NCBI GenBank assembly: GCA_009777725.1
Contig: WRLG01000011.1
Location: forward strand, 6,807 to 70,806
Source: Oscillospiraceae bacterium
Lineage (GTDB): Bacteria > Bacillota > Clostridia > Oscillospirales > Ruminococcaceae
DNA length: 64,000 nt
Reading direction: 5' to 3'
Shown here: positions 45,748 through 61,645 of the stretch, piece by piece
Layout: each line of letters opens with the position of its first letter
Position numbering within the stretch: position 1 is the first letter of the stretch
Program-made: the position numbers and the translations under genes
The notes under the pieces: generated by a model
What the model was told of the DNA's origin: nothing
The model's database searches: none
Seen by the model: only the letters and a program-made list of their open reading frames with translations

Positions 45748-46023
45748 ATGTATAAAGAAACGCGGGGCGATTATCGGCGCGTGTTATCAAAATTTATAAA
45801 AAAAAAGCTATACCTGAACACCCACATGAATCTGACCGACAATACATTTCTTGAAATAGAAAATGTAAAGCGGATAACGGATTATAACGATGTCTGCATA
45901 CAGCTTCAGACCTCTACGCTCAGCTTAAGAATCTGGGGCAGTAATTTACAAATTTCCGATTATAATACAGATGGAATTGTTGTCAGAGGAGCATTTTCAT
46001 CGATTGAGTTTTTTCCCATTTGA
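45748..46023 (+). CDS. yqfC: sporulation protein YqfC (YabP family)
   Basis: YabP-like beta pattern FLEIENVKRITDYNDVCIQLQT...LRIWGSNLQISDYN...IVVRGAFSSIEF. Immediately precedes yqfD. Confidence 0.7.
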   Translation: MYKETRGDYRRVLSKFIKKKLYLNTHMNLTDNTFLEIENVKRITDYNDVCIQLQTSTLSLRIWGSNLQISDYNTDGIVVRGAFSSIEFFPI

Positions 46024-46052
46024 AACTGTAAATTATCTAAAGGAGAGCAAAT

Positions 46053-47356: not shown

Positions 47357-48244
47357 ATGGTAACTGAAACATTCCTCATATCAGTAAAAAACGACATCGG
47401 ATTTAGGCTTTTCTTCGCTGACGAACGGAACATTGAGTTTTTACAAGGGTTGTTAAAATCAATTCTGAAACTGGACGAGGGCGAATATGAGGTCATCGAA
47501 ATCCTCGACCCGCACTTGCTCCGCGAATTTCACGGGGATAAACTAGGCATTGTCGATGTAAAGGTAAAAACTAAAACAGGGAAAATTATCCATATAGAAA
47601 TCCAACTCAGAGTCCGCCCCGGCATGGAGGAGCGTATTATTTATTATGATGCTAAGCTAATCACAGAGCAAATCGGAAGCAGTGATAAATATAAAGACCT
47701 AAAACGAGTAATCAGCATTATAATCACCGAAGAAACCCTAATAAAAGCAAGCCCGCTTTACCATCATCGTTTCACCTTTTTCGACCCGAACGCAAACATC
47801 GAGCTATCCGACCTAATCGAAATCCACACTCTGGAACTGAACAAACTGCCGGATAATTTTGACGGCACGGAATTATGCGACTGGGCGAAATTTATCGCCG
47901 CAGGGAGCGAGGAGGAATTGGAAATGGTAGCAAACAGGAATACGCAAATTAGTAAGGCTGTAGTCAAGCTCCGCGAACTGTCGGCAGACGAAAAAGCGCG
48001 TGATATGTATGAACGCCAAGAAAAAGCAAGGCGGGACCATGAGTGGGCTATGGATTATGCTCGGGAAGTGGGTATTGAGGAGGGTAGGCAGGAAGGTCGG
48101 CAGGAGGGTATCAGGGAGGGTATCAAAGAGGGTATCAAGGAGGGTACGCAAAAACGCGAGCAGGAGCTTATTGAAAGCATGAAATTATCCGGCATGTCGG
48201 AAGCCGAAATTGATAGAATCCTTAACTTTAAACGCAAACATTGA
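47357..48244 (+). CDS. Rpn-family / PD-(D/E)XK putative transposase-nuclease
   Basis: GIVDVKVKTKTGKIIHIEIQL core and a C-terminal EGRQEGRQEGIREGIKEGIKEG repeat. Confidence 0.7.
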   Translation: MVTETFLISVKNDIGFRLFFADERNIEFLQGLLKSILKLDEGEYEVIEILDPHLLREFHGDKLGIVDVKVKTKTGKIIHIEIQLRVRPGMEERIIYYDAKLITEQIGSSDKYKDLKRVISIIITEETLIKASPLYHHRFTFFDPNANIELSDLIEIHTLELNKLPDNFDGTELCDWAKFIAAGSEEELEMVANRNTQISKAVVKLRELSADEKARDMYERQEKARRDHEWAMDYAREVGIEEGRQEGRQEGIREGIKEGIKEGTQKREQELIESMKLSGMSEAEIDRILNFKRKH

Positions 48245-48408: not shown

Positions 48409-48864
48409 CTATTCCTCCATCTGTTTCCCCAAAAACTGCGCCGCCGCCTGAATCAGATTTTGCTGAACTTCATTTGCGACTGCATCGTTATTGTTAGCCA
48501 GAAACGCAACCGCGCCCGTAACATCTCCCGACGAAAGAATCGGCGAACAGGCTATAGCGGGTCGGTCAATGCCCTCTACGGGGTAAACCTTAGCATCTGA
48601 GGAAGATGTTTTGAGGTAGTTTTTGCGGTTATCGAGATATTCCTCCAGTGCTTGTGAAATACGCCTTTCGCTGAACTCCTTCTTCTGCACCCCCGCAACG
48701 GCGACTACATGGTCGCGGTCAAAGACAACCGTGGGGCAGTTGGCAAGCTTAGTCATAACCTCGGCAACCTGCGCCGCCGAGCCTGCAAGCTCATTGATTG
48801 CGGAGTATTTTTTAAAAATTACCTCGCCATCGTTGCTTGTGTATATTTCTAAGGGGTCGCCCTC
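48409..48864 (-). pseudogene. spoVT: spoVT, 3' fragment (codons from ...EGDPLEIY to the natural stop), separated from its 5' part by the insertion
   Basis: EGDPLEIYTSNDGEVIFKKYSAINEL...VAVAG...GDVTGAVAFL...AAQFLGKQMEE is collinear with the SpoVT C-terminal 5/6. The upstream 32 codons of track ORF 48409..48960 are element/CRISPR sequence. Confidence 0.85.
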
Positions 48865-48937
48865 ATTGATAACATTGGAAGATAGATTTTGTTTAGGAAT
48901 ATCAGGGTTTGGGGAGAGGATATGTTGTACATAAATT

Positions 48938-49978
48938 ATTTCAACCCACACGCCCCACATAGGGGGCGACGTTGAGGCGTTGGAATATCCGAGTTTGTTA
49001 TGTTATTTCAATCCACGCCCCCCGCATAGGGGGCGACTTTGCGGAGAGAATGAGCCTTATTCATAATTTGGATTTCAATCCACGCCCCCCGCATAGGGGG
49101 CGACTGTTAATTTCGGGCACACTTTCATCTCACAGGCGATTTCAATCCACGCCCCCCGCATAGGGGGCGACATAAGTGATAACCGTTTCGCCTCTATCCA
49201 AGAAATTTCAATCCACGCCCCCCGCATAGGGGGCGACCTATGTTGGTTGACGAATTGAGAGCGTGGGGCATTTCAATCCACGCCCCCCGCATAGGGGGCG
49301 ACTTTTACTGGTGTATAACTGTTGCTCTGTGTTGTTTATTTCAATCCACGCCCCCCGCATAGGGGGCGACCCAAGACAAAATTGCGTGTGCGGGTTTACG
49401 AGGGAGCATTTCAATCCACGCCCCCCGCATAGGGGGCGACATTAAAGAGTTTGCGAGAGGGGGAAGCTTCGTTTTATTTCAATCCACGCCCCCCGCATAG
49501 GGGGCGACAAAAGCGGGTGATGATATGCAAATTGTAATAACTATTTCAATCCACGCCCCCCGCATAGGGGGCGACCTCTGCAAAAAGGATTAAAGGAACA
49601 CGGACTTGTTATTTCAATCCACGCCCCCCGCATAGGGGGCGACACAAGCCAAAACGCAAGCTGAAAAGGCACTACTCATTTCAATCCACGCCCCCCGCAT
49701 AGGGGGCGACGAGAGGGGCGACATATTATGGCAAAGTATGGTATATTTCAATCCACGCCCCCCGCATAGGGGGCGACGGGCTCGATATAGGTACGGGGTA
49801 GGTTTTGAACTTATTTCAATCCACGCCCCCCGCATAGGGGGCGACATAAAGCTGTTGAAAATCAACGGCTTTTATTTTATTTCAATCCACGCCCCCCGCA
49901 TAGGGGGCGACATTAGCCCGTCAAATACGGCAACGGTTGTGTTTCATTTCAATCCACGCCCCCCGCATAGGGGGCGAC
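48938..49978 (-). CRISPR. CRISPR array, 16 repeats (33 nt) and 15 spacers (32-37 nt), type I-C repeat
   Basis: The plus-strand repeat is ATTTCAATCCACGCCCCCCGCATAGGGGGCGAC, which is GTCGCCCCCTATGCGGGGGGCGTGGATTGAAAT in the transcribed sense. Repeat starts: 48938 (degenerate), 49005, 49072, 49139, 49205, 49270, 49338, 49408, 49476, 49543, 49611, 49678, 49745, 49813, 49879, 49946. Confidence 0.97.
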
Positions 49979-50169: not shown

Positions 50170-50481
50170 TTATATTATTAGCGGCTCTGTTACATCGAAT
50201 GAGGCTTTTGCTCCGTAGTGTTCAACATTGTTTTTGTAATTATTTCCAAGTGAGTAAAATCTAAGGCTATCCTCATTCTTATCCATAATTTTGAGCAATG
50301 TTGCCTTAACCTTAACAAGCAATGCGGCATCGAGGTTACATTCAAATACGGAGTTTTGAACTCGTTGACCGTAATTTACGCAGGTTTTGGCTATTTGCCG
50401 CAGACGTTTACGCCCTGCGGCAGTTTCCGTGCTAACATCGTATGTGATTAACACAAGCAAACAAATGCACCTCATTTCCAT
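50170..50481 (-). CDS. cas2: CRISPR-associated endoribonuclease Cas2
   Basis: LVLITYDVS...RKRLRQIAKTCVNYGQRVQNSVFEC. Confidence 0.9.
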   Translation of the reverse strand: MEMRCICLLVLITYDVSTETAAGRKRLRQIAKTCVNYGQRVQNSVFECNLDAALLVKVKATLLKIMDKNEDSLRFYSLGNNYKNNVEHYGAKASFDVTEPLII

Positions 50482-51503
50482 AAAAACGGCGGATATTCGT
50501 CAAGGTCGCCCCGCAAAAATCTTGCAAGCAGTAAGGCTTGAACATAAGTCGCCAATCCCCATTCTATCTTTTCCTGCAAAAACGGGTGCGTTATTTGTTC
50601 CTGTTTCCGCTTTTGCCAAGCATTTAAAAATATTCGCCTTGCTTCATCTTTTATAAGGACAGAGCCGTTTTCCTTTGTTTGAAAGCCTTTTGAGTCTATT
50701 TGCCGCTTGTTAATCAGCGACAATACAAATCTGTCGGCAATAACCGCTCGAAATTCCTCCATTAAATCGAGAGCTAAAGATTTCCTCCCGGGTCTGTCAC
50801 GGTGGAGAAACCCCACAAATGGGTCAAGCCCTACCGAGCGAACCGCCGCCGCAACATCGTTGGCTAAAAGGGAGTACGCAAAAGACAGCAATGAATTCAC
50901 ATTGTCAAGCGGCGGGCGGCGGCTTCGTGTTTTAAAGAAGAAATCCTCTTTAGACTGCAAAATCAACTCATCAAATACGGAGAAATATCTTGTCGCCGCT
51001 TCACCCTCAATGCCTCGTATCGTTTCCAAGTTGCTTGCTTTCCGTAATGGTTTTACGGCATTTGCAATGCCGAGTGCCGCTGATTTAATTCGCTCGGAAT
51101 CAACTCTCATCTCATGGTCACGTAACGCTCGTTCGAGAATCCAACGGCTGTTATGAAGCTTTGCGGTTATTATATTTTTTGCGATTGCCGTGCTTTGGGT
51201 TAAATCATCTGCCATTCTGTACTGCGTTCTGCGAAGAACGACATTCCCCTTTTCTATCCCCGATACATCCGCCAAAAACCGCCCGTTTACTGTAAAAAAT
51301 GACAACGCAATATTTCGGTCGGCACACGCTCCCATCAAAGCGGGAGAAGCCCCCGTGTAACCGAAAGTGATAATTCCCTCTAAGTTATGAAGCGGAACAC
51401 GGAGCAAGGTTTCTTTATCTCGTAATACAACGACGTTTTCGCCGTCCAACGAAAGGTAAGCATCGGGCGTTGTTACATAAAGAGTATTCAGAAGTTTTCT
51501 CAG
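50472..51503 (-). CDS. cas1: CRISPR-associated endonuclease Cas1 (type I-C)
   Basis: The track ORF starts at 51449, but the conserved N-terminus (R)KLLNTLYVTTPDAYLSLDGENVVV continues upstream in frame. The only plausible initiator is CTG at 51503-51501, with GAGGAGGG upstream. Confidence 0.85.
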   Translation of the reverse strand: MRKLLNTLYVTTPDAYLSLDGENVVVLRDKETLLRVPLHNLEGIITFGYTGASPALMGACADRNIALSFFTVNGRFLADVSGIEKGNVVLRRTQYRMADDLTQSTAIAKNIITAKLHNSRWILERALRDHEMRVDSERIKSAALGIANAVKPLRKASNLETIRGIEGEAATRYFSVFDELILQSKEDFFFKTRSRRPPLDNVNSLLSFAYSLLANDVAAAVRSVGLDPFVGFLHRDRPGRKSLALDLMEEFRAVIADRFVLSLINKRQIDSKGFQTKENGSVLIKDEARRIFLNAWQKRKQEQITHPFLQEKIEWGLATYVQALLLARFLRGDLDEYPPFLWK

Positions 51504-52171
51504 AAAACACCCTCCTCTCGTAATGCGTGAGCAATATAATTTGCAACATTTTTAGTGTCCGTTACCTTAGGCAGGCATAACTCATACAGCGAACATTTCA
51601 AACAGTATTTTGATGATTTTACTTTCGGAGTATATCGGCGATTATAGTAATCGTGCATTTCGCAAACCATTTTTCGGGCTTTTTCACGCATTTCATCGGT
51701 TATATCAACATATTCCCGCCGCTTTGTTTCTCCGTAGTAAATACAACTTTTCTCAATTTTGCCGCAGTTCAGCATTTCTTCAAGACACATAGCTTGAAGA
51801 GTAAGCTGAAACCTGTCGCAATCATTGATTTTCGATTTACCTCGCTTATACTCTACTATCAGCGGAAACCACTTACCCGAACGTCCATGCAAACTAACTC
51901 CGCAAACATCATCTTGATGAAACTCAATAATATCGCATTGTCCCGAAACACCGAGTTCACTTGAATGAATCGGCATTTCTCGTGTTATAATCACATCTCC
52001 CCGCTTTTCGGCAAAAAACGGATCATGTGCTTTCTCGTGGATTACCCGCCCTTCGGCTGTCAGGACATTTTCCGCCCACAATTGCTCAATATGTATTAAC
52101 GCCCATTGTCGGCGGCAAAATGCAAAGTGTTGTATTCCCGATAGCTGCAAAAAATCATCTTCTGTATACAT
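51500..52171 (-). CDS. cas4: CRISPR-associated exonuclease Cas4
   Basis: RecB-like motifs, an N-terminal Cys (FCRRQWAL) and a C-terminal CLKCSLYELC cluster. Confidence 0.9.
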   Translation of the reverse strand: MYTEDDFLQLSGIQHFAFCRRQWALIHIEQLWAENVLTAEGRVIHEKAHDPFFAEKRGDVIITREMPIHSSELGVSGQCDIIEFHQDDVCGVSLHGRSGKWFPLIVEYKRGKSKINDCDRFQLTLQAMCLEEMLNCGKIEKSCIYYGETKRREYVDITDEMREKARKMVCEMHDYYNRRYTPKVKSSKYCLKCSLYELCLPKVTDTKNVANYIAHALREEGVF

Positions 52172-52173
52172 AC

Positions 52174-53004
52174 TTATTCACCATCGATTTCTTCCGTCTT
52201 AATTCCAATATCGTCAAGCGTATAAGTTCCGTCTGCATTGACATGAAGACTGCGGTGAACCTTTGCAGACGAGAGAGTTTTTTCTGTATGTGTCCACCAA
52301 ATTAGTTTTATAACTTCCATGCTCCCTGCAGGTCGAGCGGCAGATTCGTCATTCTCGAACATTTTAAGCATTGCCTCTTTCAGCGTTTTGGCATCATCAT
52401 CGGAGAACCCGGTCTTTTCGGAAAGCTGTTTGTTTATGCTACCGTATATAACGTAAATGCCTTTATCAACCCTGTGCTTATCTCCCATTGTATCCGACCC
52501 TTTAATTTCACCTCCTATATCGCCGGATGTACTTTTGGTTATTTTCAGATGAGTTATATCAATAGGTTCTTTTGAAAATGCACTCTGTATAGAAACCGGT
52601 CCGCGAACCGGAATAGATACGGATACTTGGTTTGGGCTTTTCCCGTCTTTCCAAGCAAGAACTGCACCAAAAGCTCGAACATCAAACCATTTTTCACAAG
52701 CAATTTTTGCTTTTTCGCTTGTCTTATCATCTTTGTTTGGTTTCCCCATTTCAGCTTCATAGCGTGTTTTTATGTCAGGATATTCATCTTTTTTATAATC
52801 GTCAGACTGAATGAGAATACTCTCTCCCATATCAAGAAGCCTGTTTCTGATTTTGCGTTTTAGGCATACGTCCGTCATTTCTCCATAACCATCGTAGTCT
52901 GTTCGGGGTCTGTTGCCGTTTAGCGGGTCGCCGTTGGGGTTAGCATTTCTTACCCCGATTATAATTGCGAAGTCAATTTTCTTAGTCAGCATCTTCTTGT
53001 TCAT
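52174..53004 (-). CDS. cas7: Cas7 (Csd2), type I-C
   Basis: IIGVRNANPNGDPLNGNRPR signature. ATG at 53004 is preceded by AAGGAGG. Confidence 0.85.
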   Translation of the reverse strand: MNKKMLTKKIDFAIIIGVRNANPNGDPLNGNRPRTDYDGYGEMTDVCLKRKIRNRLLDMGESILIQSDDYKKDEYPDIKTRYEAEMGKPNKDDKTSEKAKIACEKWFDVRAFGAVLAWKDGKSPNQVSVSIPVRGPVSIQSAFSKEPIDITHLKITKSTSGDIGGEIKGSDTMGDKHRVDKGIYVIYGSINKQLSEKTGFSDDDAKTLKEAMLKMFENDESAARPAGSMEVIKLIWWTHTEKTLSSAKVHRSLHVNADGTYTLDDIGIKTEEIDGE

Positions 53005-54898
53005 TTCCTTGTTCCTCCTTGATTCTTTTTTTGTTTTCCTCATATTCTTTATCCTTATCCGCATAATACTTGCGTTGTAAAGAATAACCAAATAGATATT
53101 TTACGGTTAATGGTTTGTCATACTCTTTGTCAGAAATATTGGGGTCAAACAGTAACTCTGTGATACTGTCTATTTCTTGCTGATACCATTCACGACCGCC
53201 GCTTTTCAAACTTACGAGAGCATAGTTTATCTTCTCTCGAATAATTCCCCAGGTGCGATAAGGATTATTTTTAAAAGCGGACATATACCTTATTGCATTT
53301 GTGGGACGGTCGTCTTTTTTCTTTTGCAAGTGCTTCCTTTCAATAGTATCAGCAACCGCAAGTAACCTCCCGAAAAGATAATCCTTATCCTTATTATTTC
53401 TGTCTAATCCCAATGCAAAAACCTCCTCTTTATAATAATATTTACGCCCCATAGCACAAACAACGCCGATATGATTCTCCCAATCGTCTTTATCACTCTC
53501 CCATTTTTTAATAAATGAAAACGGATTTGAAACCCTGTTTACTGCGGCGTTTAGCCAAGACTTGTCAAATTTCTCACTGTTTAAAATAAAACTCAAAATT
53601 CGCTCTCTCGCCTGTTTTTTGATTTTGTAATAGCTCTTTGCTTCACCCGGTGGTTTTTCACCGTATACCGCCGCAATAATCTTATCTGTACTCGGCGCGG
53701 AAATATGATAAATTGGGTTCCCGTTTTTATCATATATAAATTTTCCTTTCTTGCCCCTACTTCTAAAATTCCAACAACAAGTTTCATGCCAGTTTATAAT
53801 GCGTTCGATGTATTCGTTTTCGTCTAAATCACAGTAAAAAGTAATGGCAAGAGGGGCATCCCCCTCACTATCTGTTGCTAGTACAACAATTTTTCTGTCG
53901 GTTTGCGATTTTTTTACAGAACCGCATCCATTGAGCAACTCTCGAAGTTTATGGGCATAATCCCTATTTAATACCCCCTTTGTCTCAATAAGCTTGTCGC
54001 TATCTGTTTGCGGCTCCTCATTTCCAAAAAATTCACACGAATCTTTTTGAAAACTAATCGCTTCCTCGCCATTATCAATTGCCCACGCTACTATTGCTTG
54101 TGAACCACATTTAGATAAGTTTTGTGCCGATATTAAATACTTCAACATAGACATTGCGGCATGACTTGATTCCTTGCCAATTATGCGAGATTCAGTGGGA
54201 TTATTCGCAATTGGAAAAAATCGCCCCGAGTAGACAAAATTAGGGTCTTCTTTGTCAGACGGAAAGCAAATGAGCTTGCTATTTCCTGATATTTTTTGAC
54301 TATACTTAGAGATAGTTTTCACTTCTCCGGTTGCATAGCAAAGCCCCTTATTCTTATCCTCGCCCTCGTTTTCTTTACAGTATTTTATCCAAGCATCAAC
54401 AATGGTTTCATCTTTCCATAAATCCGATTCCAAGCCCAACCACACCGAAAACATAACAAAGGTTTTGGGTGATAAATTTTTAAACTTATATCCTTCCAAA
54501 TCGTCCAAAATAGTCTTCTTTGAAAGATACTGATATACAATTTTTACTTTATCATGAAAGTTACACCATTTTCTTAATTGTTCCATATAGGCATCGTAGT
54601 ATTTGTCATAATAAGCCAGATATTTCATTTGTTCGTGTAAGGGATATGGTGCAGAAGTTGAAGATGTGCGTGCTTCGGCTTCCGGAGTATACGGAATGAT
54701 AACTGAACCGGAAAATGGCTCTGCGTGTTTTAAATTGCCGCTTTTATCAAGCGTTATGCGTATACCATTACTATCTTTTGATTTTCCTATATTTTTAAAC
54801 AAAAAATATGGTGGCGGCAGTATGTTTTCATTATCATTAATCCCCCAAATATTTTCACAATTATAGTAAGTCTCAGCCAAATTACCAAACCAACTCAA
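52982..54898 (-). CDS. cas8c: Cas8c (Csd1), type I-C large subunit
   Basis: 638 aa, positioned between cas5 and cas7, with 4-nt overlap with cas5. The call rests on size and position; the sequence itself is only weakly recognisable. Confidence 0.8.
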
Positions 54899-55608
54899 TC
54901 AAAATCACCATCCCTTTCAGCTTGCTCTACAGTTTTGAAATTATCGCCCTCAACGAATCTCTTAAAATCATATTTGTCACCGTATTCTCTGACAGTACGG
55001 TACATAGGGTCAACAAATTCAATAATGCCGTTGTTCATTGACTGCTTGCAAAGTCTGACACCAAGTTCTTTTTTGCCTGTTTCATCAGGATAATCAAAGC
55101 TGTGAAACATAACTCCGAAATCAATAACGCCGTAATCATTGTAAGGGCTTGAATCTTCACCAAATATGCAGGGTTCGACATAGCCTTGACACTCTCTTGT
55201 GCCGAGGAAAATATCTCGCCGCCCGCCCTGTTCTACACAGCGTTTGGCAATATTATGATGTTTATGCTCGTTGCGGTCATTTAATAAATCCGGGCGTTGC
55301 TCGTTCCACTCGAAATGTGCCGTTACTTGATACTCAACATCTTTGAGATAAGTGTAATAAGCAAGGTCGTTTCCTCCGTTCATTTTAATAGGGCGAACGC
55401 CCTTGCTTTCTGTCTGAATTTTTTTCATAACCCGAATTTTATCAACATACCAAATAAAAGTCGGCTTCCAATATATGCCTTCGCAAATCCCCTTTAACGC
55501 TTGATATGTAGGAGTTTGGTAGCTGAATTTTTCGCCGCCCGGTCGGGTAATCGGGTCGGAAAAAAGTGCGTATCTGCCGTAAACCTTAAATTCTATTGAG
55601 TTTCGCAT
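54895..55608 (-). CDS. cas5: Cas5c (Cas5d), type I-C pre-crRNA-processing subunit
   Basis: [37 protein letters not shown]-terminus typical of Cas5d. Confidence 0.85.
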
Positions 55609-55620
55609 ATAATTCCCCTT

Positions 55621-57936
55621 TCACGCATTTAACAATTCGTGTTTTCCGTTAATATCTATCCCGAAATCACCACTATAAAAGCCCTTTGATAAAACCGTCA
55701 GTCCGTTATAGTTTATATTGTCAATTGCACCGTGTTTTTTAAATTTTTTAAGTTGTTCTTCATATAATGAAACGCTGTATTTACCAAGCTTTTTCAGTAA
55801 CTGTCGCTTTTCTTTTAAGCAATCGGTTGAGTTATATTGGTTTAGTAACGCTTCGCTGTCACCATAAGGAACAATAACGTTAATCCGCCCTTTTTCAATC
55901 ACATAAAACTCATCAGCGGCTGAACGCATTGCAAACGGCAACGCAATTTTTGTTTTATTCCCCCTGTTTTTATATGCACCAACGCCTTGTTTATTGCACG
56001 ACAGCAAATCGTAAATTGAGCCGTTATTTACGGGGTAATCCATTTTATTTTTTATATCCGTCTGACCGTAATAATATTCATAATATTGCTCTATCGTTAC
56101 GTTCTCTTCATCAAATAATCGCCTTGTAATATTTGCCCCCGCCTTTATATCGGGCAATCTGCTCAAATTTTCACCCTTGATATTTATCACATAAACGCTT
56201 TTAGCATCGTCATATTCACCATGACGGTTGCAACGCCCAGCCGCTTGAAAAATGCTGTCAAGCCCTGCAATGTCACGGATAACACATTCAAACGAAATAT
56301 CAACTCCGGCTTCTATAAGCTGCGTAGATACGCAAATTACAGACTCTTTGTTTTTCAATCGTTGCCTTAACTTTGCGATTACATCATCTCGATGAGCAGA
56401 ACACATATTTGTACTTAAATGCAAAACGGAGTTGATTTCTTTCAATTCCTCATAAACAGCTTTTGCGGCGGCTTTGGTGTTCACTATTACAAGAGTTGAA
56501 TTGTTATGCTTGTCCAAGATAAATTCCGATAATTCGGGGTATGTATAGCCTGCTCCGCTAAGCGAATTAATAATGTTATAACGCTTTGGCGGTTCAATAT
56601 AAGTGGTAAGCGATGGACTGTCCGAAAATAATATTTTCCTGAAAACTCTTTCAAATGGGGGTTGAGTGGCAGTGCAAAGTAAAATAGTGCTTTTGCAGAT
56701 TTTATTAATAAAATTCATAGCCGAATTAAAAATATGAGTGCATTTGAGCGGGATGCTTTGTGCTTCATCAAATATAATCACGCTTTTAGCCATGTTATGA
56801 AGCTTTCTCAAATCGGAGCCTTTTGCCGAAAATATGCTTTCCAAAAGTTGAACTTGCGTAGTAAGAATAATGGGTGCATCCCAGCGACCCATTTGCAATT
56901 TATAATGCTCCTCCTTGTCATCGTCTGGAAAGAAATCGGAATGATGTTCAAAGACCATGTCTTCATGGCATCCGAGCGTTCTGCGAATTTCAATTGCCGT
57001 TTGGCTTAAAATAGAAAGATACGGGATAACGTAAATGACCCTGTCTAAACCATGATGTTTAGCGTGTTCAAGTGCAAAACGCAAGCTCGATAAAGTCTTG
57101 CCGCCGCCCGTCGGCACTTCGAGTTTGTAAATGCCAACGCCTCGCAACCCGGCAATTTTGCAGTCTTCCGATACCTTTCGCCGCAGTTTACTCATAGCGG
57201 AATTTGAATCTGTTTCTGAAAACTCTGCAAGCCTTTTTTCAAGAGCATTTATTAATTCGCCCCAATTCGGCGTAGCAGGATGAGAATAGGGAACGCCGAT
57301 TTCAAATAAGTAAGCCCCTAATCTGTCAGCATCAACAAGGCATGAAAAAGCAAGCTTAGTTAGCATGGAAACAAAGAAAAACCTATCTAAGCTTAAATTT
57401 TCAGCTGTTTGTGTAATATTCAACAACTCATTTTTCAGAGCATTTATATCAACAGGCTCACCATTAAAATCAACATTCTCAGTTCTTGCTATTTTATCAT
57501 TAAGCGACGTTTCACCATCGGGAGAGATATTATCGTATAATCTGCCGTGATGAGAAGCGATAATATTAGCGAGTATTTCAGCGAACGGCGGGATTAAGAG
57601 AGTTTTGTCATATGCGTATTTCGCACCATATTCACTATGCGGCAAACGCTCCTTTTGCGGATTACTACTATGTAAATTTCTATGCAAATATTCTTGCCAT
57701 TCTTCAGACGACTTGCCTAAATCGTGCCAGAACCCTGCCAATCGCATAGTTTCGCCGATACCGCATTTATTACCGAATGAACATGCAATTTCAGATGTTT
57801 CCATCAAGTGATTTTTTAGTGACTGATTTCTACGTACCGATTTATCTAAATCGTACAAACTACGTGCCAAATAATCGTCCAACAATGTGTATTTTTGTTT
57901 TTGTTCAATATTTTTTGGCATTATGTTCATCCCCAA
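55621..57936 (-). CDS. cas3: Cas3 helicase-nuclease (HD + DEAD/DEAH helicase)
   Basis: HD motif FWHDLGK, Walker A PTGGGKT, DEAQ box IIFDEAQ. Confidence 0.9.
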   Translation of the reverse strand: MGMNIMPKNIEQKQKYTLLDDYLARSLYDLDKSVRRNQSLKNHLMETSEIACSFGNKCGIGETMRLAGFWHDLGKSSEEWQEYLHRNLHSSNPQKERLPHSEYGAKYAYDKTLLIPPFAEILANIIASHHGRLYDNISPDGETSLNDKIARTENVDFNGEPVDINALKNELLNITQTAENLSLDRFFFVSMLTKLAFSCLVDADRLGAYLFEIGVPYSHPATPNWGELINALEKRLAEFSETDSNSAMSKLRRKVSEDCKIAGLRGVGIYKLEVPTGGGKTLSSLRFALEHAKHHGLDRVIYVIPYLSILSQTAIEIRRTLGCHEDMVFEHHSDFFPDDDKEEHYKLQMGRWDAPIILTTQVQLLESIFSAKGSDLRKLHNMAKSVIIFDEAQSIPLKCTHIFNSAMNFINKICKSTILLCTATQPPFERVFRKILFSDSPSLTTYIEPPKRYNIINSLSGAGYTYPELSEFILDKHNNSTLVIVNTKAAAKAVYEELKEINSVLHLSTNMCSAHRDDVIAKLRQRLKNKESVICVSTQLIEAGVDISFECVIRDIAGLDSIFQAAGRCNRHGEYDDAKSVYVINIKGENLSRLPDIKAGANITRRLFDEENVTIEQYYEYYYGQTDIKNKMDYPVNNGSIYDLLSCNKQGVGAYKNRGNKTKIALPFAMRSAADEFYVIEKGRINVIVPYGDSEALLNQYNSTDCLKEKRQLLKKLGKYSVSLYEEQLKKFKKHGAIDNINYNGLTVLSKGFYSGDFGIDINGKHELLNA

Positions 57937-58111
57937 CTTTAAGTTCTTATAGATAATTATACTATATAAAGTTATATAATGTCAATACTTTTGCCGAAAA
58001 TTTACAGGACTTAGAAATTGCAGAAGAAGAAGTCGCACAGTCGGTGACAATAAGAATAAATCTCACAAAAAATGGTAAAACTAAACTTCAGAGGGGGAAT
58101 TGCTTATAAAA

Positions 58112-58321
58112 ATGAATATCAAAGATTCTGACCATATAGCAGAAATATGGCTGACAAACGAAGAACAGCAAAATGAAGAGTTACGACAATCGCTGGAACT
58201 GCTTTATGAGAAGTATAAAGCCCAAAAATATAAAATCTGCATATTCTGCTCCGGCAAAAGCGACTTGACAGAAAACACCGCAAGGCTTTTGTTTTGCAAT
58301 AAGGCTTTAAACACAGTATAA
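58112..58321 (+). CDS. small hypothetical protein (69 aa) on the element
   Basis: MNIKDSDHIAEIWLTNEEQQNEELRQSLELLYEKYKAQKYKICIFCSG... From memory it resembles small proteins seen on Firmicute mobile elements. Function unknown. Confidence 0.4.
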   Translation: MNIKDSDHIAEIWLTNEEQQNEELRQSLELLYEKYKAQKYKICIFCSGKSDLTENTARLLFCNKALNTV

Positions 58322-59539
58322 TCCTATAGTCAAAATTATCCTGTCTTTTTCAATTTTTTCCGTAAAAACAGGTTCTGCCCAGCCTTGCTCCTCGCAAACA
58401 CGCTGAATAAGCGGTATCCCGCTTCCCAATCGTTCCCCAATATCGAGGAGACTAAACATTTTCATAATAACGGAATTGCGAGGAGATGACACACCGCCGC
58501 TCAAGGCCTCATCAATACTGACACGGAAATTACCCGGGTTTTCAAATATAATTCCATCAAGATTATTTCGTATAACAAGACCACGCTCACCATAAAAATC
58601 AGCGTTAATAAGGCAATTCGCCAACGCTTCCCGCAACGCCTTGTGAACAGGCGTATCATCAATACGAGTCAAACCGTCCGCCATTTTAAAAGGCGTTTTT
58701 ATTTTTGGGTTTTGAATGAGCTTATTATATGCCTTAAAAAAGAAGTCGTTAAGATTACCGCTCCACTCGCCCGAGGAGGAGGTAATTCTATCGGTAAAGC
58801 GAATATCAGGGTCAAAATGTTCCTGATAATCAAGAAAGTAATACGGATATTCACGCAATATCTCATTCTCAAAGCCAAACATCAGCAAACCGGCGGCAGT
58901 AGGATACCTCTTACCGTCTTCGCCGATGCCTACTGCCCCAAGCTTTTGCAAAAATTCAACGTCCTCCAACACTTCCCAAACATGACCGGGGCGGGTCACT
59001 TTCATACGGTTGCGATAACGCCGCAAGCTGTCATAATCAAACACGTCAAGCAACATTTTGTCAAGTACGAGCATATCCTGCGTTTTAACTCCGTTATCCC
59101 GAATCATAGCTGATACCATTTCCTTAGAGCAACGATAATCGCCCTCGCCGTTTCTGCGATAAGTTCCTGTAAACGGATTGTCATTCAGATAAATGGGTTT
59201 AAAGTTTCTATCCGCCCGGGGAATGTCTATGACTATAACGCTTTTGCCGGCAACACGTTCAACCCTAACCCGCTTGTCTGTCAGAATGTTGATATTGACT
59301 TTTTTAGTGTTATTGACGGTATTCCAAAAGTCGGCAATCAGCCTATCGGGGTTTTCAAGCCCGGCAATTTTCAGCGATTTATCGGAAAGTTCTTCAACGC
59401 CGAGCAGAATAACGCCGCCGTTTGTATTGGCGAACGAAGAATAGGTTTCCCATATGCTGTTCGGAAGTCCTCCCTCCGCTTTCTTTGCTTCAAGTCGGTT
59501 GCCCTCGCAATATTTATCAAGTTCATTTAATTTCAACAT
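58307..59539 (-). CDS. AlbA_2/Schlafen-type divergent AAA domain plus HATPase_c_4-like protein (putative regulator; COG2865-like)
   Basis: N-terminal EGNRLEAKKAEGGLPNSIWETYSSFANTNGGVILLGV... and C-terminal ALREALANCLINADF...GSGIPLI. The usual C-terminal HTH appears to be absent. Confidence 0.65.
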   Translation of the reverse strand: MLKLNELDKYCEGNRLEAKKAEGGLPNSIWETYSSFANTNGGVILLGVEELSDKSLKIAGLENPDRLIADFWNTVNNTKKVNINILTDKRVRVERVAGKSVIVIDIPRADRNFKPIYLNDNPFTGTYRRNGEGDYRCSKEMVSAMIRDNGVKTQDMLVLDKMLLDVFDYDSLRRYRNRMKVTRPGHVWEVLEDVEFLQKLGAVGIGEDGKRYPTAAGLLMFGFENEILREYPYYFLDYQEHFDPDIRFTDRITSSSGEWSGNLNDFFFKAYNKLIQNPKIKTPFKMADGLTRIDDTPVHKALREALANCLINADFYGERGLVIRNNLDGIIFENPGNFRVSIDEALSGGVSSPRNSVIMKMFSLLDIGERLGSGIPLIQRVCEEQGWAEPVFTEKIEKDRIILTIGLYCV

Positions 59540-59651: not shown

Positions 59652-59680
59652 TTGACAAAACATCAAAGATATGTTACAAT
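59652..59680 (+). promoter_or_regulatory. consensus sigma-A promoter of the recombinase gene
   Basis: TTGACA (59652-59657), 17-nt spacer, TACAAT (59675-59680); AAGGAG RBS 8 nt before the ATG at 59714. Confidence 0.55.
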
Positions 59681-59713: not shown

Positions 59714-61645
59714 ATGGAAACAGAACAACCCACCCGCATTGCCGCCTACTGCCGCATATCCGTAGACGAGGAAATAGATAGGGAAAACACAAGTATTGAG
59801 AACCAAAAATCTATTATTACCGACTTTGTCGCCCACAAATTTCCAAATTCCCAACTTGATTTTTGTGAGGACAGGGACAGGAGCGGTTATACATTTGAGC
59901 AAAGAGAAGGCTATATGAAAATCCGCCCCCTGCTGATGAGAGGCGATTATGACATACTTATAGTCAAGGATTTCTCAAGGTTTTCACGGCGTAACAGCAA
60001 AGGGCTTGTCGAGCTTGAGGACTTGCGAGATGCCGGCGTTCGCATTATAGCAATCGGTGATAATATTGACTACCCGACTTATGACGACTGGACGGCGATT
60101 CAGTTTCGTTTTCTTATTAATGAAATGCCTGTTACTGATACGAGCAAAAAAGTCAAGTCCGTTATCAAACGCCGCCAGAGCGAGGGCAAATGGATTTGTG
60201 CCGTGCCGTATGGGTATGTGATTACCAACAGTAAAACTATGGCTTTTCAAATTGATGAGCCTGCTGCCGAAGTTGTCCGCGAGATATTTAAGCTGTATAA
60301 CGACGGCTGGGGCTACAAGAAAATTGCGAATCACCTGACAGATAAGCATATCCCAACGCCGAGAATGGCAGAGAAGATGCGTAAAGAAGCGGCAGGTGAG
60401 GACTGTAATATCAAAACAAAAGAAATATGGAGTATAATTACAATATCAACAATTTTGCAGAATGATTTTTATATCGGAACTTTGCGGCAGGGCAAATACC
60501 GCCGCAAAAAAATCAACGGCGGCGATGTTAAAGAGGATTGCGAAAACCATATCGTCTTTGAAAATAATCACGAGCCGATTATTGATTACCGCACTTTTGC
60601 TATAACCAAAGAGCAACTTAAAAAACGAACAAGCACCAACTATCGGGGTGTGAAAAAATTTGAGAATGTTTACTCCGGTTATCTGTTCTGCGGGGATTGC
60701 GGCTCGCCGTTGTTCTCAATGAGTCGCCGTGATTTAGCCCCCGCCTACACCTGCGGTACGTATCATAACAGAGGAACAAAAGGCTGCACTTCTCATCATA
60801 CACGGGTTGATACCCTTGATAAACTACTGAAATCCTATGTGAAAACAGTCAAGGAAAACTCCGCCGAGATGCTTAACAAGCTTAACGAAGCACTCAAAGA
60901 CGAAACAGCCCATACAAAAGAAACCACCGACACAATAAAAATCATAGAGGAGCAAATTGATAATGCAAAGACCGAAATGAAAATGCTTGCCAAGCAAAAG
61001 CTGAAAGACATTATGAGAAACCCGAACAAAGAGGAAATGCTTGAAGAAACCTATGACGAAATGCTTGATGAACTGACCAACAGAATAGACGGCTTGCAAA
61101 ATCAACTGACTCTGACCGCAAACCGCCGCAACACAGTAATCCGAGTAAACCGAACAGCCAAAACCGCACTTGATATTTTCGATACTATACTGAACAAAGA
61201 AAAACTCGACAAATGCGATATTGAGCTAATCATAGATAAAATCATCATCTATGAAGACCACTTGGAAATCCACCTCAAATCCGACATAGACCATCTGCTG
61301 AAATGCGGTACGCTTGCTCATAGCGAAGAAACTGCCCCGCTTTTAAGCATTGATGAGATTGATAAGGAGGAAATCGTAAATTTTGAGCAAGGCACTATAA
61401 ATATCTCACCCTATGTAAACCGCATTGTCCAGTCTGCCCCTAATCGGAAAGACAAGGTTTATAGTGTCAATGTTATCAGCAATGGGTCACCCTCCCTAAT
61501 CCTCATAGTGCGCCTTATTTCCTTAGGGATAACAACCCTTCCTAAATCGTCAATTCTCCTGACAATTCCGGTAGCTTTCATGCTTATATTCCTCCATATC
61601 AGAGCTAAGCGGTATTTAAAACGAGGATTTAGGTTTGAGGCTTGA
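59714..61645 (+). CDS. large serine recombinase
   Basis: Resolvase catalytic domain (AAYCRISVDEE...RDRSGYT...VKDFSRFSRR), recombinase domain (PYGY), zinc ribbon (CGDCGSP...CGTYH...CTSH) and a long coiled coil. The ORF reads through the right junction at 61484-61494. Confidence 0.9.
   Translation: METEQPTRIAAYCRISVDEEIDRENTSIENQKSIITDFVAHKFPNSQLDFCEDRDRSGYTFEQREGYMKIRPLLMRGDYDILIVKDFSRFSRRNSKGLVELEDLRDAGVRIIAIGDNIDYPTYDDWTAIQFRFLINEMPVTDTSKKVKSVIKRRQSEGKWICAVPYGYVITNSKTMAFQIDEPAAEVVREIFKLYNDGWGYKKIANHLTDKHIPTPRMAEKMRKEAAGEDCNIKTKEIWSIITISTILQNDFYIGTLRQGKYRRKKINGGDVKEDCENHIVFENNHEPIIDYRTFAITKEQLKKRTSTNYRGVKKFENVYSGYLFCGDCGSPLFSMSRRDLAPAYTCGTYHNRGTKGCTSHHTRVDTLDKLLKSYVKTVKENSAEMLNKLNEALKDETAHTKETTDTIKIIEEQIDNAKTEMKMLAKQKLKDIMRNPNKEEMLEETYDEMLDELTNRIDGLQNQLTLTANRRNTVIRVNRTAKTALDIFDTILNKEKLDKCDIELIIDKIIIYEDHLEIHLKSDIDHLLKCGTLAHSEETAPLLSIDEIDKEEIVNFEQGTINISPYVNRIVQSAPNRKDKVYSVNVISNGSPSLILIVRLISLGITTLPKSSILLTIPVAFMLIFLHIRAKRYLKRGFRFEA
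61483..61581 (-). pseudogene. spoVT: spoVT, 5' fragment (Met1 to ...REGDP) with its RBS
   Basis: ATG at 61581 with GGAGG upstream. MKATGIVRRIDDLGRVVIPKEIRRTMRIREGDP is then followed by 7 element-encoded codons (LLITLTL) and a stop at 61459. Confidence 0.85.

What the first reader, a model, noticed from the sequence alone, without database searches (positions are those of the whole stretch)
48851..48880. Junction anatomy: shared GGGTC-N-CCCTC core, 11-bp terminal inverted repeats, in-frame attB and a palindromic attP
On the plus strand the left junction reads AAGGGGTCGCCCTCATTGATAACATTGG (48851-48878). The right junction reads CAATGTTATCAGCAATGGGTCACCCTCCCTAAT (61468-61500). Both contain GGGTC-N-CCCTC in direct orientation (48854-48864 and 61484-61494). 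The element-internal flanks carry a perfect 11-bp inverted repeat, TGATAACATTG (48867-48877) and CAATGTTATCA (61468-61478). Joining the outer halves gives AAGGGGTC[R]CCCTCCCTAAT. On the coding strand this reads ATT AGG GAG GGY GAC CCC TTA = I R E G D P L, in frame and synonymous whichever side of the central base the cut falls. Joining the inner halves gives a ~40-bp imperfect palindrome, CAATGTTATCAGCAATGGGTC[R]CCCTCATTGATAACATTG. That is what an attP for a large serine recombinase is expected to look like.
Basis: seen in the sequence. Interest (0 to 1): 0.7.

Follow-up and report, generated by a model that had tools for sequence, protein, structure and literature searches.

The report
Flipped CRISPR island splitting sporulation gene spoVT
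The two short sequences are the genuine ends of a 12.6-kb mobile element, carrying a complete CRISPR-Cas system, that a serine recombinase inserted into the forespore gene spoVT; it belongs to a large, apparently undescribed family but sits backwards because the centre of its attachment site is inverted.

Summary
The split minus-strand gene is spoVT. The 12,630-bp insert carries a type I-C CRISPR-Cas locus, an AlbA_2 gene, a conserved 69-aa ORF and a large serine recombinase (LSR) at its right edge.

The att-site interpretation is supported and refined:
- By attP symmetry and comparison with relatives, the crossover is most likely TC (48857-58 / 61487-88), the GA of the Asp codon in SpoVT "GDPL". 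It is not the central N.
- More than 100 LSR homologues (56-83% identity, Oscillospiraceae, Ruminococcus, Lachnospiraceae) target the same codon and have the same arms. Free attP forms also exist.
- All 68 relatives with a readable junction have GA in the recombinase direction, and the LSR runs in frame into SpoVT-C. This element has TC. Its 8-bp core GGGTCGCC is the reverse complement of the family's GGCGACCC, so it is inserted backwards. Two strains share this junction.

A further inference is unproven. The 69-aa ORF, a candidate directionality factor, has a sigma-F-type promoter that is enriched across the family, and spoVT is a forespore gene. This suggests excision in the forespore, unlike all known sporulation intervening elements. 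No recombination was observed.

The parts
48409..48858 (-). spoVT 3' part: from the Asp32 codon (GAC, + strand GTC 48856-48858) to the stop codon (48411-48409). Encodes the GAF-like SpoVT_C domain.
   Evidence: Translation. The joined protein hits PF15714 SpoVT_C at 1.6e-36 and TIGR02851. tblastn coordinates.
48838..48856 (+). Host-side half-site of attL (B arm, spoVT-C side).
   Evidence: Half-site table. Consensus over 68 relatives: GTgTAtATTTC.AggGGG|TC.
48857..48858 (+). Predicted crossover dinucleotide TC at attL (GA of the Asp codon on the coding strand).
   Evidence: Symmetry centre of the predicted attP: 16-nt arm + 3 + TC + 3 + 16-nt arm. The same geometry is seen in L014, L001, L008, L022 and L170. 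Inferred, not mapped experimentally.
48854..48864 (+). Core shared with attR (GGGTC-G-CCCTC).
48859..48877 (+). Element-side distal half-site of attL, containing inverted-repeat arm TGATAACATTG (48867-48877).
   Evidence: The motif is conserved in the distal arms of L001, L008, L014, L022, L082 and L170.
48859..48934 (+). Coding sequence for the recombinase C-terminal tail that is used only after excision (...GSPSLITLEDRFCLGISGFGERICCT*).
   Evidence: Virtual circularisation gives a 616-aa ORF. Its tail is homologous to the tail of L001 read across a real attP.
48938..49978 (-). CRISPR array: 16 repeats of 33 nt (ATTTCAATCCACGCCCCCCGCATAGGGGGCGAC on the + strand) and 15 spacers of 32-37 nt. 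The repeat at the attL end is degenerate.
50170..57936 (-). Type I-C cas operon: cas3 (55621-57936), cas5c (54895-55608), cas8c (about 52982-54898), cas7 (52174-53091 as the longest ORF), cas4 (51500-52171), cas1 (50472-51449), cas2 (50170-50481).
   Evidence: Pfam and NCBIfam hits.
58054..58083 (+). Sigma-F-type promoter-like site upstream of the 69-aa ORF: -35 GAATA (58054-58058), 15-nt spacer, -10 GGTAAAACTA (58074-58083).
   Evidence: Sequence. The -10 matches GGnnAnAHTR perfectly and the -35 is one mismatch from GYATA (consensus quoted in bioRxiv 10.1101/2023.12.01.569620). Family-wide enrichment.
58112..58321 (+). Conserved 69-aa ORF (MNIKDSDHIAEIWLTNEEQQ...), the candidate recombination directionality factor.
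   Evidence: Homologue found upstream of the LSR in 61 loci, and in 32 of the 44 loci with at least 2.5 kb of upstream sequence. 399 cluster representatives. No Pfam or PHROG family.
58307..59539 (-). AlbA_2 (Schlafen-like) / HATPase_c_4 protein, inserted between the 69-aa ORF and the recombinase gene.
   Evidence: Relatives normally have the small ORF 360-515 nt upstream of the LSR.
59652..59680 (+). Housekeeping-type promoter of the recombinase gene (TTGACA, 17 nt, extended -10 TGtTACAAT).
   Evidence: 11 of 12 matches plus TG.
59714..61645 (+). Large serine recombinase gene, 643 aa in the integrated state. The ORF crosses attR at 61487 and ends in host DNA, antisense to the spoVT 5' end.
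   Evidence: The identical 643-aa product is called in two assemblies.
61468..61486 (+). Element-side, recombinase-proximal half-site of attR, with inverted-repeat arm CAATGTTATCA (61468-61478). It encodes the LSR motif VNVIS.
   Evidence: Consensus of 68 relatives: TGTCAATGTTATCAGTaACGGC|GA.
61487..61488 (+). Predicted crossover dinucleotide TC at attR.
   Evidence: As for attL. All 68 relatives have GA here in the recombinase direction, whereas this element has TC.
61484..61494 (+). Core shared with attL (GGGTC-A-CCCTC).
61486..61581 (-). spoVT 5' part (Met1 to Asp32), the AbrB-type DNA-binding N-terminus.
   Evidence: 100% identical to the N-terminus in L014 and L163.

Best explanation
The two sequences are attL and attR of a 12,630-bp integrative element in an Oscillospiraceae genome.

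Shown directly:
- The element interrupts spoVT, and joining the host halves restores an intact gene.
- It carries a complete type I-C CRISPR-Cas system, an AlbA_2 gene, a conserved 69-aa ORF, and a large serine recombinase (LSR) gene at its right edge.
- The LSR ORF reads across attR.
- The ends carry the half-site motif that is conserved in a large family of spoVT-targeting LSR elements.

Inferred mechanism:
- LSR dimers bind the quasi-palindromic attP (CAATGTTATCAGCAAT GGG TC GCC CTCATTGATAACATTG) and the weakly symmetric attB in spoVT (...AGGGAGGGT GA CCCCTTAGAA...).
- They cut with a 2-nt stagger at TC/GA, in the Asp32 codon, rotate and religate.
- Only the non-palindromic central dinucleotide sets polarity. 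This element's core, GGGTCGCC, is the reverse complement of the family core, GGCGACCC. It therefore integrates at the same codon in the opposite orientation.
- The flip most plausibly arose by inversion of the spacer between the inverted-repeat arms.
- Excision should need the LSR, which has a sigma-A-type promoter, plus a directionality factor. The best candidate is the 69-aa ORF.
- That ORF has a sigma-F-type promoter and spoVT is a forespore gene. This suggests excision in the forespore, followed by re-integration by the constitutively expressed LSR after germination.

My probabilities:
- True LSR att sites of an integrated element: about 0.9.
- Crossover at TC: about 0.75.
- Flipped core explains the reversed orientation: about 0.85.
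- The 69-aa ORF is the directionality factor: about 0.5.
- Forespore-specific excision: about 0.35-0.4.
For: Junction strings.

Identity of the parts:
- spoVT identity and gap-free reconstitution.
- LSR domains.
- The 11-mer is unique to the two junctions, and the chance of such an inverted repeat is 2e-4.

Family:
- 80 genome loci plus 120 proteins have LSRs 56-83% identical. Of the top 120 proteins, 108 are LSR-SpoVT_C in-frame fusions.
- The conserved junction is GTCAATGTTATCAG-NNNC-GGCGACCC-CTT-GAAAT.
- All 68 relatives with a readable junction have GA in the LSR direction.
- L014 shows both junctions with the geometry 16 + 3 + GA + 3 + 16.
- Free attP forms are L001, L008, L022 and L170/L171. 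The L170/L171 cluster has 217 member sequences. L001 has a 29-bp terminal overlap suggesting a circle.

Flip:
- The core is the exact reverse complement of the family core, and the LSR tail read across the predicted attP is homologous to the L001 tail.
- The closest relatives (83% and 80% identity) are in the normal orientation.
- The flipped junction is identical in a second strain that is 98.9% identical overall.

Regulation:
- Sigma-A-type LSR promoter.
- Conserved 69-aa ORF.
- Sigma-F motif within one mismatch in 11 of 57 upstream regions against 0.7 +/- 0.8 in shuffles, and within two mismatches in 31 of 57 against 7.3-7.6 +/- 2.4-2.6 (two shuffle runs). Sigma-E and sigma-A are not enriched.
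- spoVT depends on sigma-F/sigma-G in the forespore and is required for heat-resistant spores in C. difficile (PMC3789822).
- Precedent in the C. difficile skin element: a sigma-A-driven LSR plus a 72-aa sigma-controlled directionality factor (PMC5025042).
- The host keeps spoIVB, yqfC and yqfD.
Against: - No attP circle or empty attB of this strain was found in the single metagenome scan. Activity of this copy is unproven.
- The crossover position rests on symmetry and on the identity blocks, not on mapped products.
- The 69-aa ORF has no similarity to any known directionality factor, and it was not found in 12 of 44 loci that have enough upstream sequence.
- The promoter evidence is consensus matching on related, non-independent sequences.
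- The host's own spoVT upstream region shows no clean sigma-F or sigma-G match, so the internal control failed.
- Relatives carry relaxases and R-M systems, which suits ordinary mobilizable islands that merely use spoVT as a landing site.
- How four central bases came to be inverted is unexplained.
- The flipped integrated state gives the LSR a hydrophobic 53-aa tail whose effect is unknown.
Confidence: 0.8

Rival explanations
1. This is an ordinary integrative or mobilizable genomic island that uses the highly conserved spoVT sequence only as a safe, widely available landing site. Excision serves horizontal transfer only and has no developmental role. spoVT is simply inactivated while the island is present, and the host sporulates poorly or not at all.
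For: - The LSR has a housekeeping-type promoter.
- Relatives carry relaxases, R-M systems and ABC transporters, and no phage or sporulation genes.
- The cargo varies between close relatives: DpnII R-M in L169, CRISPR-Cas here.
- attP forms are common in metagenomes.
- Many gut Clostridia have reduced sporulation (general knowledge).
Against: - The sigma-F-type motif is enriched upstream of the conserved LSR-linked small ORF.
- Both spoVT halves are intact here, and the C-terminal part is intact in all 68 relatives.
- The host retains spoIVB, yqfC and yqfD.
- Loss of spoVT abolishes heat-resistant spores in C. difficile (PMC3789822), so permanent inactivation should be costly in a spore former.
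Confidence: 0.35
2. This is a skin-like element that is excised in the mother cell, like all known sporulation intervening elements.
For: The general architecture matches skin, SP-beta and gin: an LSR at the element edge, in-frame reconstitution, and a small accessory ORF (PMC5025042, PMC4191935, PMC5595907).
Against: - spoVT is transcribed and acts in the forespore (PMC3789822). Repairing it only in the mother cell would not help.
- Sigma-E-type motifs are absent upstream of the small ORF (0 of 57).
Confidence: 0.05
3. The reversed orientation, or the junctions themselves, are an assembly artefact. Alternatively, the shared core is only a chance or duplicated stretch of coding sequence, or a transposon target-site duplication.
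For: The source is a metagenome assembly. The core is short (5 + 5 bp).
Against: - The same 100-nt right junction occurs in two assemblies from different records. One of them is a distinct strain with 62 mismatches over 7.9 kb.
- The 11-bp inverted repeats are too short to mislead an assembler.
- The conserved family-wide half-site geometry and real attP forms show that the core is the attP/attB overlap.
- No transposase lies inside the element.
Confidence: 0.03

Closest known systems
skin element of Clostridioides difficile (LSR CD1231 plus directionality factor CD1234) and B. subtilis skin (SpoIVCA)
   Same: - A large serine recombinase at the edge of an element that splits a sporulation gene.
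- Precise in-frame reconstitution of that gene.
- The recombinase is driven by a sigma-A promoter, and a roughly 70-aa orphan protein under a sporulation sigma factor supplies directionality (PMC5025042).
- Orientation varies between species (bioRxiv 2022.02.25.481979).
   Different: - The target here is spoVT, a forespore gene, rather than mother-cell sigK.
- The candidate factor has a sigma-F-type promoter motif, not sigma-E/SpoIIID.
- The cargo is CRISPR-Cas rather than prophage remnants.
- The recombinase ORF itself spans the att site.
SP-beta prophage in spsM (SprA/SprB) and the gin element in gerE of B. cereus
   Same: - LSR-mediated, developmentally timed excision that reconstitutes a sporulation gene.
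- gin is likewise non-phage (PMC5595907).
- The SP-beta attB is a symmetric sequence inside the coding region (PMC4191935, PMC5499854).
   Different: Both lie in mother-cell genes, and their excision is confined to the mother cell so that the element stays in the spore genome (PMC4191935). That logic cannot apply to spoVT.
Listeria A118-like prophages in comK ('active lysogeny')
   Same: A serine integrase targets a coding sequence (PMC3556126). From my own knowledge of the literature, reversible excision and re-integration switch the host gene on and off without loss of the element.
   Different: A118-like elements are functional phages, and the trigger is intracellular growth, not sporulation. 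Reversibility in the present element is only hypothesised.
Central-dinucleotide polarity rule of serine integrases (Bxb1, phiC31)
   Same: The half-sites are quasi-symmetric, and only the non-palindromic central dinucleotide fixes orientation. This is general knowledge, and the sources seen here use the half-site alignment method (PMC12286644, PMC3783163). The flipped core behaves as a natural counterpart of the laboratory dinucleotide-swap experiments.
   Different: Here at least the four central bases are inverted (CGAC to GTCG), not only the dinucleotide. This arose naturally within a family that otherwise has a single polarity.
Type I-C CRISPR-Cas loci on mobile elements
   Same: The gene order is canonical: cas3-cas5-cas8c-cas7-cas4-cas1-cas2-array.
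   Different: The whole system is the sole substantial cargo of a 12.6-kb LSR-mobilised island. None of the 80 relatives examined carries it.

Membership tests
Large serine recombinase integrative element (attL/attR) | The recombinase has Resolvase, Recombinase and zinc-ribbon domains, with the N-terminal catalytic Ser motif. | tested here: met
   PF00239, PF07508 and PF13408 all score above the gathering cut-offs. The N-terminus reads AAYCRISVDEE.
Large serine recombinase integrative element (attL/attR) | attP of about 40-50 bp, made of imperfect inverted half-sites around a non-palindromic central dinucleotide. | tested here: met
   The predicted attP has 14 of 20 symmetric pairs and 11-bp perfect arms, centred on TC. 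Real family attP sites have the same geometry.
Large serine recombinase integrative element (attL/attR) | attL and attR share only a short core, and joining the outer halves restores the target exactly. | tested here: met
   The core is 5 + 5 bp. The reconstituted SpoVT aligns with 2W1T without a gap.
Large serine recombinase integrative element (attL/attR) | Demonstrated recombination, with the crossover mapped to the central dinucleotide. | not testable with these tools
   No attP or empty attB of this strain was found in the metagenome scan. Relatives do occur in both attP and integrated forms.
Large serine recombinase integrative element (attL/attR) | A cognate recombination directionality factor. 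| tested here: inconclusive
   A conserved, LSR-linked 69-aa ORF is present. It has no homology to known factors, and no interaction test was possible.
Sporulation gene-intervening elements (skin, SP-beta, vfbin, vrin, gin) | Interrupts the coding sequence of a sporulation gene, which is restored in frame by excision. | tested here: met
   spoVT.
Sporulation gene-intervening elements (skin, SP-beta, vfbin, vrin, gin) | The target is a mother-cell gene and excision is confined to the terminally differentiated mother cell. | tested here: not met
   spoVT is a forespore gene dependent on sigma-F/sigma-G (PMC3789822). No sigma-E motif is present and a sigma-F-type motif is enriched. The compartment in which excision occurs is itself untested.
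Sporulation gene-intervening elements (skin, SP-beta, vfbin, vrin, gin) | Excision is timed by a sporulation-sigma-controlled accessory factor. | tested here: inconclusive
   GAATA-N15-GGTAAAACTA lies upstream of the 69-aa ORF. The motif is enriched across the family: 11 of 57 against 0.7 in shuffles. There are no expression data.
Type I-C CRISPR-Cas | cas3, cas5c, cas8c, cas7, cas4, cas1 and cas2 together with a CRISPR array. | tested here: met
   TIGR01876, TIGR01863, TIGR02589, PF01867, PF09827 and PF01930. The array has 16 repeats.
Prophage | Phage structural, packaging or lysis genes. | tested here: not met
   The whole 12.6 kb is accounted for by the cas genes, the array, AlbA_2, the small ORF and the LSR. 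Relatives show no structural-protein families among the top PHROG or Pfam hits. Only 3 weak relatives were found in IMG/VR.
Integrative mobilizable or conjugative element | A relaxase or oriT, or conjugation genes. | tested here: not met
   None is present in this element. MobA/VirD2 and Mob_Pre relaxases occur in some relatives.

The most novel reading that the evidence does not exclude
The spoVT-targeting LSR elements form a previously undescribed class of developmental switch that excises in the forespore, that is, in the germ line. Excision would be driven by a sigma-F-controlled 69-aa directionality factor and would restore spoVT for spore maturation. The circle would then be carried in the spore and re-integrated by the sigma-A-driven recombinase at germination.

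In addition, the recombinase changes its own C-terminus with each reaction: a SpoVT GAF-domain fusion when integrated and a short tail when free. This could be a built-in sensor of its state. The flipped element in this window would be a natural experiment showing that the fusion is dispensable. It would also show that a complete CRISPR-Cas system can ride on such a switch.
Probability: 0.33. Interest if true: 0.85.

Novelty: new variant of a known kind. Interest (0 to 1): 0.62.

Why it matters
- It defines, at base resolution, the attachment sites of an LSR that targets a sequence conserved across spore-forming Clostridia. It also provides a natural pair of attP cores with opposite polarity for the same enzyme family, which is useful for understanding and engineering integrase directionality.
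- It reveals a large family of elements that split spoVT. More than 100 species-level genomes are involved. The fusions are annotated in databases only as 'stage V sporulation protein T' or 'recombinase', and I found no description of this family in the literature searched.
- Every characterised sporulation intervening element sits in a mother-cell gene, so that excision does not cost the element its place in the spore genome. An element in a forespore gene, with a forespore-type promoter on its putative directionality factor, challenges that rule. It also makes a reversible excise-and-reintegrate cycle directly testable.
- It shows a complete type I-C CRISPR-Cas system moving as the cargo of a small serine-recombinase island.

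Tried and rejected
- **Metagenome scan for att sites.** I used one degenerate pattern covering attP, attB, attL and attR. It gave 86 hits, almost all chance matches from soil. After flank filtering, only normal-orientation junctions of relatives and intact spoVT genes of other species remained. No attP or empty attB of this strain was found.
- **A false second flipped case.** L082 and L163 first looked like another flipped junction. They are ordinary spoVT-N | distal-arm junctions of a normally oriented element, and the symmetric arms had misled my classifier.
- **Search with the flipped-specific tail.** I searched for other flipped insertions using the recombinase tail that is antisense to the spoVT 5' end. 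Only short spurious ORFs were returned, and the positive control P0001 was not recovered. This test is inconclusive.
- **Host spoVT promoter as an internal control.** The host's own spoVT promoter gave no good sigma-F or sigma-G match. The region is occupied by a strong hairpin.
- **Family assignment of the 69-aa ORF.** Pfam and PHROGs gave nothing. The word-indexed homology search found only the ORF itself.
- **CRISPR-Cas in relatives.** None was found.
- **Spacer matches.** No spacer matched any fetched locus or the rest of the window.
- **Rfam scan of the element.** No hits.
- **Literature.** Searches for spoVT as an integration target or for forespore-specific excision found nothing relevant.
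Full report
**1. The observation**

Both junction strings are present exactly as described.
- Left junction: AAGGGGTCGCCCTCATTGATAACATTGG at 48851-48878.
- Right junction: CAATGTTATCAGCAATGGGTCACCCTCCCTAAT at 61468-61500.
- Core: GGGTC-N-CCCTC at 48854-48864 and 61484-61494.
- Inverted repeat: 11 bp, perfect, at 48867-48877 and 61468-61478.

The exact 11-mer occurs nowhere else in the 64-kb window. A perfect inverted repeat of at least 11 nt between two random 25-mers of the window has a probability of 2e-4. An 11-bp inverted repeat somewhere within 14 kb is not remarkable by itself, since there are 182 such pairs. The signal is its position at the two points where a gene is split.

**2. What is interrupted, and by what**

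The minus-strand gene is spoVT.
- Its 5' part (Met1 to Asp32, 61581-61486) encodes the AbrB-type N-terminus.
- Its 3' part (48858-48409) encodes the SpoVT_C domain.
- The joined 180-aa protein hits TIGR02851 (3.6e-60) and PF15714.
- It aligns over residues 1-180 with B. subtilis SpoVT (PDB 2W1T) with no gap at REGDPLEI.

From left to right, the 12,630-bp insert contains the following.
- 76 nt of recombinase-tail coding sequence.
- A CRISPR array of 16 repeats (48938-49978), whose degenerate terminal repeat faces attL.
- cas2, cas1, cas4, cas7, cas8c, cas5c and cas3, a complete type I-C system (50170-57936).
- A 69-aa ORF (58112-58321).
- An AlbA_2/HATPase_c_4 gene (58307-59539).
- A large serine recombinase (LSR) gene (59714-61645) with Resolvase, Recombinase and Zn_ribbon_recom domains.

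There are no phage genes and no relaxase. The host retains other sporulation genes in the window: yqfC and yqfD at 45748-47225, and spoIVB at 36754-38013. A database record for the small ORF names the source as an Oscillospiraceae MAG.

**3. A large family with the same target**

A scan of one genome per species found 124 loci encoding relatives of the LSR, and the best 80 (56-74% identity) were kept. They come from Oscillospiraceae, Ruminococcus, Lachnospiraceae and other Clostridia. In 68 of them the LSR gene is followed directly, on the same strand and in the same frame, by the C-terminal part of spoVT. The junction consensus is GTCAATGTTATCAG-NNNC-GGCGACCC-CTT-GAAAT, which reads VNVIS-x-GDPLEIYT.

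Of the 120 best protein homologues, 108 are LSR-SpoVT_C fusions of 700-750 aa. Several are annotated as "stage V sporulation protein T".

L014 contains both junctions. L001, L008, L022 and L170/L171 contain unintegrated attP sites.
- The L170/L171 protein cluster has 217 member sequences.
- L001 has a 29-bp terminal overlap, consistent with a circle of about 5 kb.

All these sites share one geometry: a 16-nt arm, 3 nt, GA, 3 nt, and a 16-nt arm. The arms carry the motif (T/C)C(A/C)(A/G)NGT(T/C)(A/G)TC(A/T)G.

The recombinase-proximal one doubles as coding sequence for the recombinase's own VNVIS motif.

They do not: they have a related core.

**4. Where the crossover is**

The arms are not symmetric about the central N of GGGTC-N-CCCTC. 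They are symmetric about TC of GGGTC (48857-58 and 61487-88). This is the GA of the Asp32 codon. The same dinucleotide lies at the symmetry centre of every family site, and it lies inside an identity block between attL and attR.

I therefore predict the following.
- attB: ...TTTCTAAGGGG TC ACCCTCCCTAAT... (coding strand GAG GGT GAC CCC).
- attP: CAATGTTATCAGCAAT GGG TC GCC CTCATTGATAACATTG.

This is inference from symmetry and has not been mapped.

**5. The element is backwards**

In all relatives the LSR reads towards spoVT-C. Here it reads towards spoVT-N, on the opposite strand. The architecture of the element is otherwise unchanged.

Read across the predicted attP, the LSR ends in ...GSPSLITLEDRFCLGISGFGERICCT*. 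This is homologous to the tail of L001 across its real attP...GDPALMTLMVLERFCYGLLKFWGRVST*.

What differs is the core. GGGTCGCC is the exact reverse complement of the family's GGCGACCC. The minimal difference is the central four bases, CGAC to GTCG.

In serine integrases the quasi-symmetric half-sites do not define polarity; only the central dinucleotide does. This is established knowledge, and PMC12286644 and PMC3783163 use the half-site alignment method. A flipped core therefore predicts exactly what is seen: integration at the same codon in the opposite orientation.

The closest relatives (83% and 80% identity, L082 and L169) have the normal orientation, so the flip is derived.

It is not an assembly artefact. 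The same 100-nt junction and the same 643-aa product occur in a JGI contig that is identical to the window. They also occur in an ENA contig from a distinct strain that is 98.9% identical, with 62 mismatches.

How the flip arose is not known. Inversion of the spacer between the inverted-repeat arms is attractive, whether by template switching or by recombination at the quasi-palindrome. The reverse-complemented 18-nt spacer would give an LSR C-terminus VNVINEGDPLLITL, which fits the family pattern and resembles L005, L024 and L069.

Orientation is also known to vary between species for skin elements (bioRxiv 2022.02.25.481979).

**6. Consequences of the att site lying inside the recombinase ORF**

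The recombinase changes its C-terminus with each reaction.
- Relatives, integrated: a SpoVT GAF-domain fusion.
- Free form: a tail of about 25 aa.
- This element, integrated: a 53-aa hydrophobic tail encoded antisense to the spoVT 5' end (643 aa).
- This element, free: 616 aa.

Whether this has any regulatory meaning is unknown.

**7. Regulation, and the most interesting inference**

The LSR has a near-consensus sigma-A promoter: TTGACA, 17 nt, TGtTACAAT, at 59652-59680.

A 69-aa ORF is conserved next to the LSR in 61 loci.
- Among the 44 loci with at least 2.5 kb of upstream sequence, 32 have it.
- It usually lies 360-515 nt upstream of the LSR on the same strand. Here it is displaced by the AlbA_2 gene.
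- It belongs to an unannotated family of 399 cluster representatives.
- It has no Pfam or PHROG match.

This mirrors the C. difficile skin element. There a sigma-A-driven LSR needs a 72-aa orphan directionality factor whose sigma-E/SpoIIID promoter confines excision to the mother cell (PMC5025042).

Upstream of the 69-aa ORF the window has GAATA (58054-58058), a 15-nt spacer, and GGTAAAACTA (58074-58083).
- The published sigma-F consensus is GYATA / GGnnAnAHTR.
- GAATA is used in genuine sigma-F promoters (bioRxiv 10.1101/2023.12.01.569620).

I tested 57 non-redundant upstream regions from the family.

| Motif | Threshold | Observed | Shuffles (mean +/- SD) | Reverse complement |
|---|---|---|---|---|
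| sigma-F | within 1 mismatch | 11 | 0.7 +/- 0.8 (max 4) | 1 |
| sigma-F | within 2 mismatches | 31 | 7.3-7.6 +/- 2.4-2.6, two runs | 9 |

Spacing is almost always 15 nt. Sigma-E and sigma-A motifs are not enriched. Sigma-G and sigma-K show only a weak excess.

spoVT is a sigma-F/sigma-G-dependent forespore gene, and it is needed for heat-resistant spores in C. difficile (PMC3789822). The characterised intervening elements covered in the papers I read (skin, SP-beta, vfbin, vrin, gin) lie in mother-cell genes. Their excision is confined to the mother cell, so the element remains in the spore genome (PMC4191935).

A spoVT element cannot follow that logic. The data suggest excision in the forespore, with the sigma-A-driven LSR re-integrating the circle after germination. 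An LSR without its directionality factor favours integration.

This is a hypothesis with several weaknesses.
- The promoter evidence is consensus matching on related sequences.
- The role of the small ORF is unproven.
- The host's own spoVT promoter region gave no clean control.

**8. Cargo**

None of the 80 relatives carries the CRISPR-Cas locus. Their cargo is variable: type I and type II R-M systems, helicases, AAA_14/DUF4143 proteins, MobA and Mob_Pre relaxases, and ABC transporters. There are no phage structural genes. Only three relatives occur in IMG/VR. The family therefore looks like integrative, sometimes mobilizable, islands with exchangeable and often defence-related cargo.

**9. 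Verdict**

The thing is a new variant of a known kind, an LSR-mediated gene-intervening element. It has three unusual features:
- a forespore gene as target;
- a naturally inverted attP core that reverses insertion polarity;
- a complete CRISPR-Cas system as cargo.

I found no description of spoVT-targeting elements in the literature searched. That library is incomplete, so prior description cannot be excluded.

Noticed in passing
window 61622-61715 (minus strand, just upstream of the spoVT ATG at 61581): A 26-bp, 96% complementary inverted repeat forms a very stable hairpin (MFE -56.9 kcal/mol, z = -6.25). On the spoVT strand it is followed by UUUU, only about 40 nt before the start codon. 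It looks like a terminator or attenuator, and it leaves no room for a recognisable sigma-F or sigma-G promoter. It has no Rfam match. In the integrated state the recombinase ORF also ends inside it (stop at 61645).
   Followed up: partly
window 59714-61645, and L014 9941-12187: The recombinase ORF always spans the att site, so its C-terminus depends on the state of the element. In 108 of the 120 closest homologues the integrated form is an in-frame LSR-SpoVT_C fusion of 700-750 aa. Public annotation often names these 'stage V sporulation protein T'.
   Followed up: partly
L001 (CAYWBF010000223.1, 4981 bp): This contig has a 29-bp terminal direct overlap. It carries only a PD-(D/E)XK (PDDEXK_2-like) gene, the 69-aa ORF, the LSR (74% identical) and an intact attP. 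It may be a complete minimal circular form of the family, about 4.95 kb long.
   Followed up: partly
window 47357-48244, with a 12-bp tandem repeat at 48078-48146: A PDDEXK_2 'transposase-like' nuclease gene lies immediately outside attL, next to the spoVT 3' end. It is 49% identical to the only cargo gene of the L001 mini-element. This may be coincidence or a remnant of an earlier element.
   Followed up: partly
window 58307-59539: An AlbA_2 (Schlafen-like) / HATPase_c_4 gene is inserted between the conserved 69-aa ORF and the recombinase. Its 3' end overlaps the end of the small ORF by 15 nt. Most relatives lack a gene at this position. Its function is unknown; it could be a regulator or a defence gene.
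   Followed up: no
window 48938-48970: The CRISPR repeat nearest attL is degenerate (ATTTCAACCCACACGCCCCACATAGGGGGCGAC). This marks the trailer end of the array. The array therefore ends only 3 nt after the stop codon of the free-form recombinase tail (48932-48934). None of the 15 spacers matches the window or any fetched locus.
   Followed up: partly
L169 2651-4432: The closest full-length relative (LSR 80% identical, normal orientation) carries a DpnII-type restriction enzyme and a D12 methyltransferase where this element carries CRISPR-Cas. Cargo appears to be exchanged between near-identical recombination modules.
   Followed up: no
window 38025-43856, 36754-38013 and 4188-6125: Host context: two tandem hybrid histidine kinases with PAS, HisKA, receiver and Hpt domains; SpoIVB peptidase; and a 645-aa flagellin. 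No tRNA genes occur in the 64 kb.
   Followed up: no
(tool behaviour): A word-indexed protein search with the last 67 aa of the 643-aa recombinase did not return that protein itself (P0001). Negative results from that search type with short queries should not be trusted.
   Followed up: no
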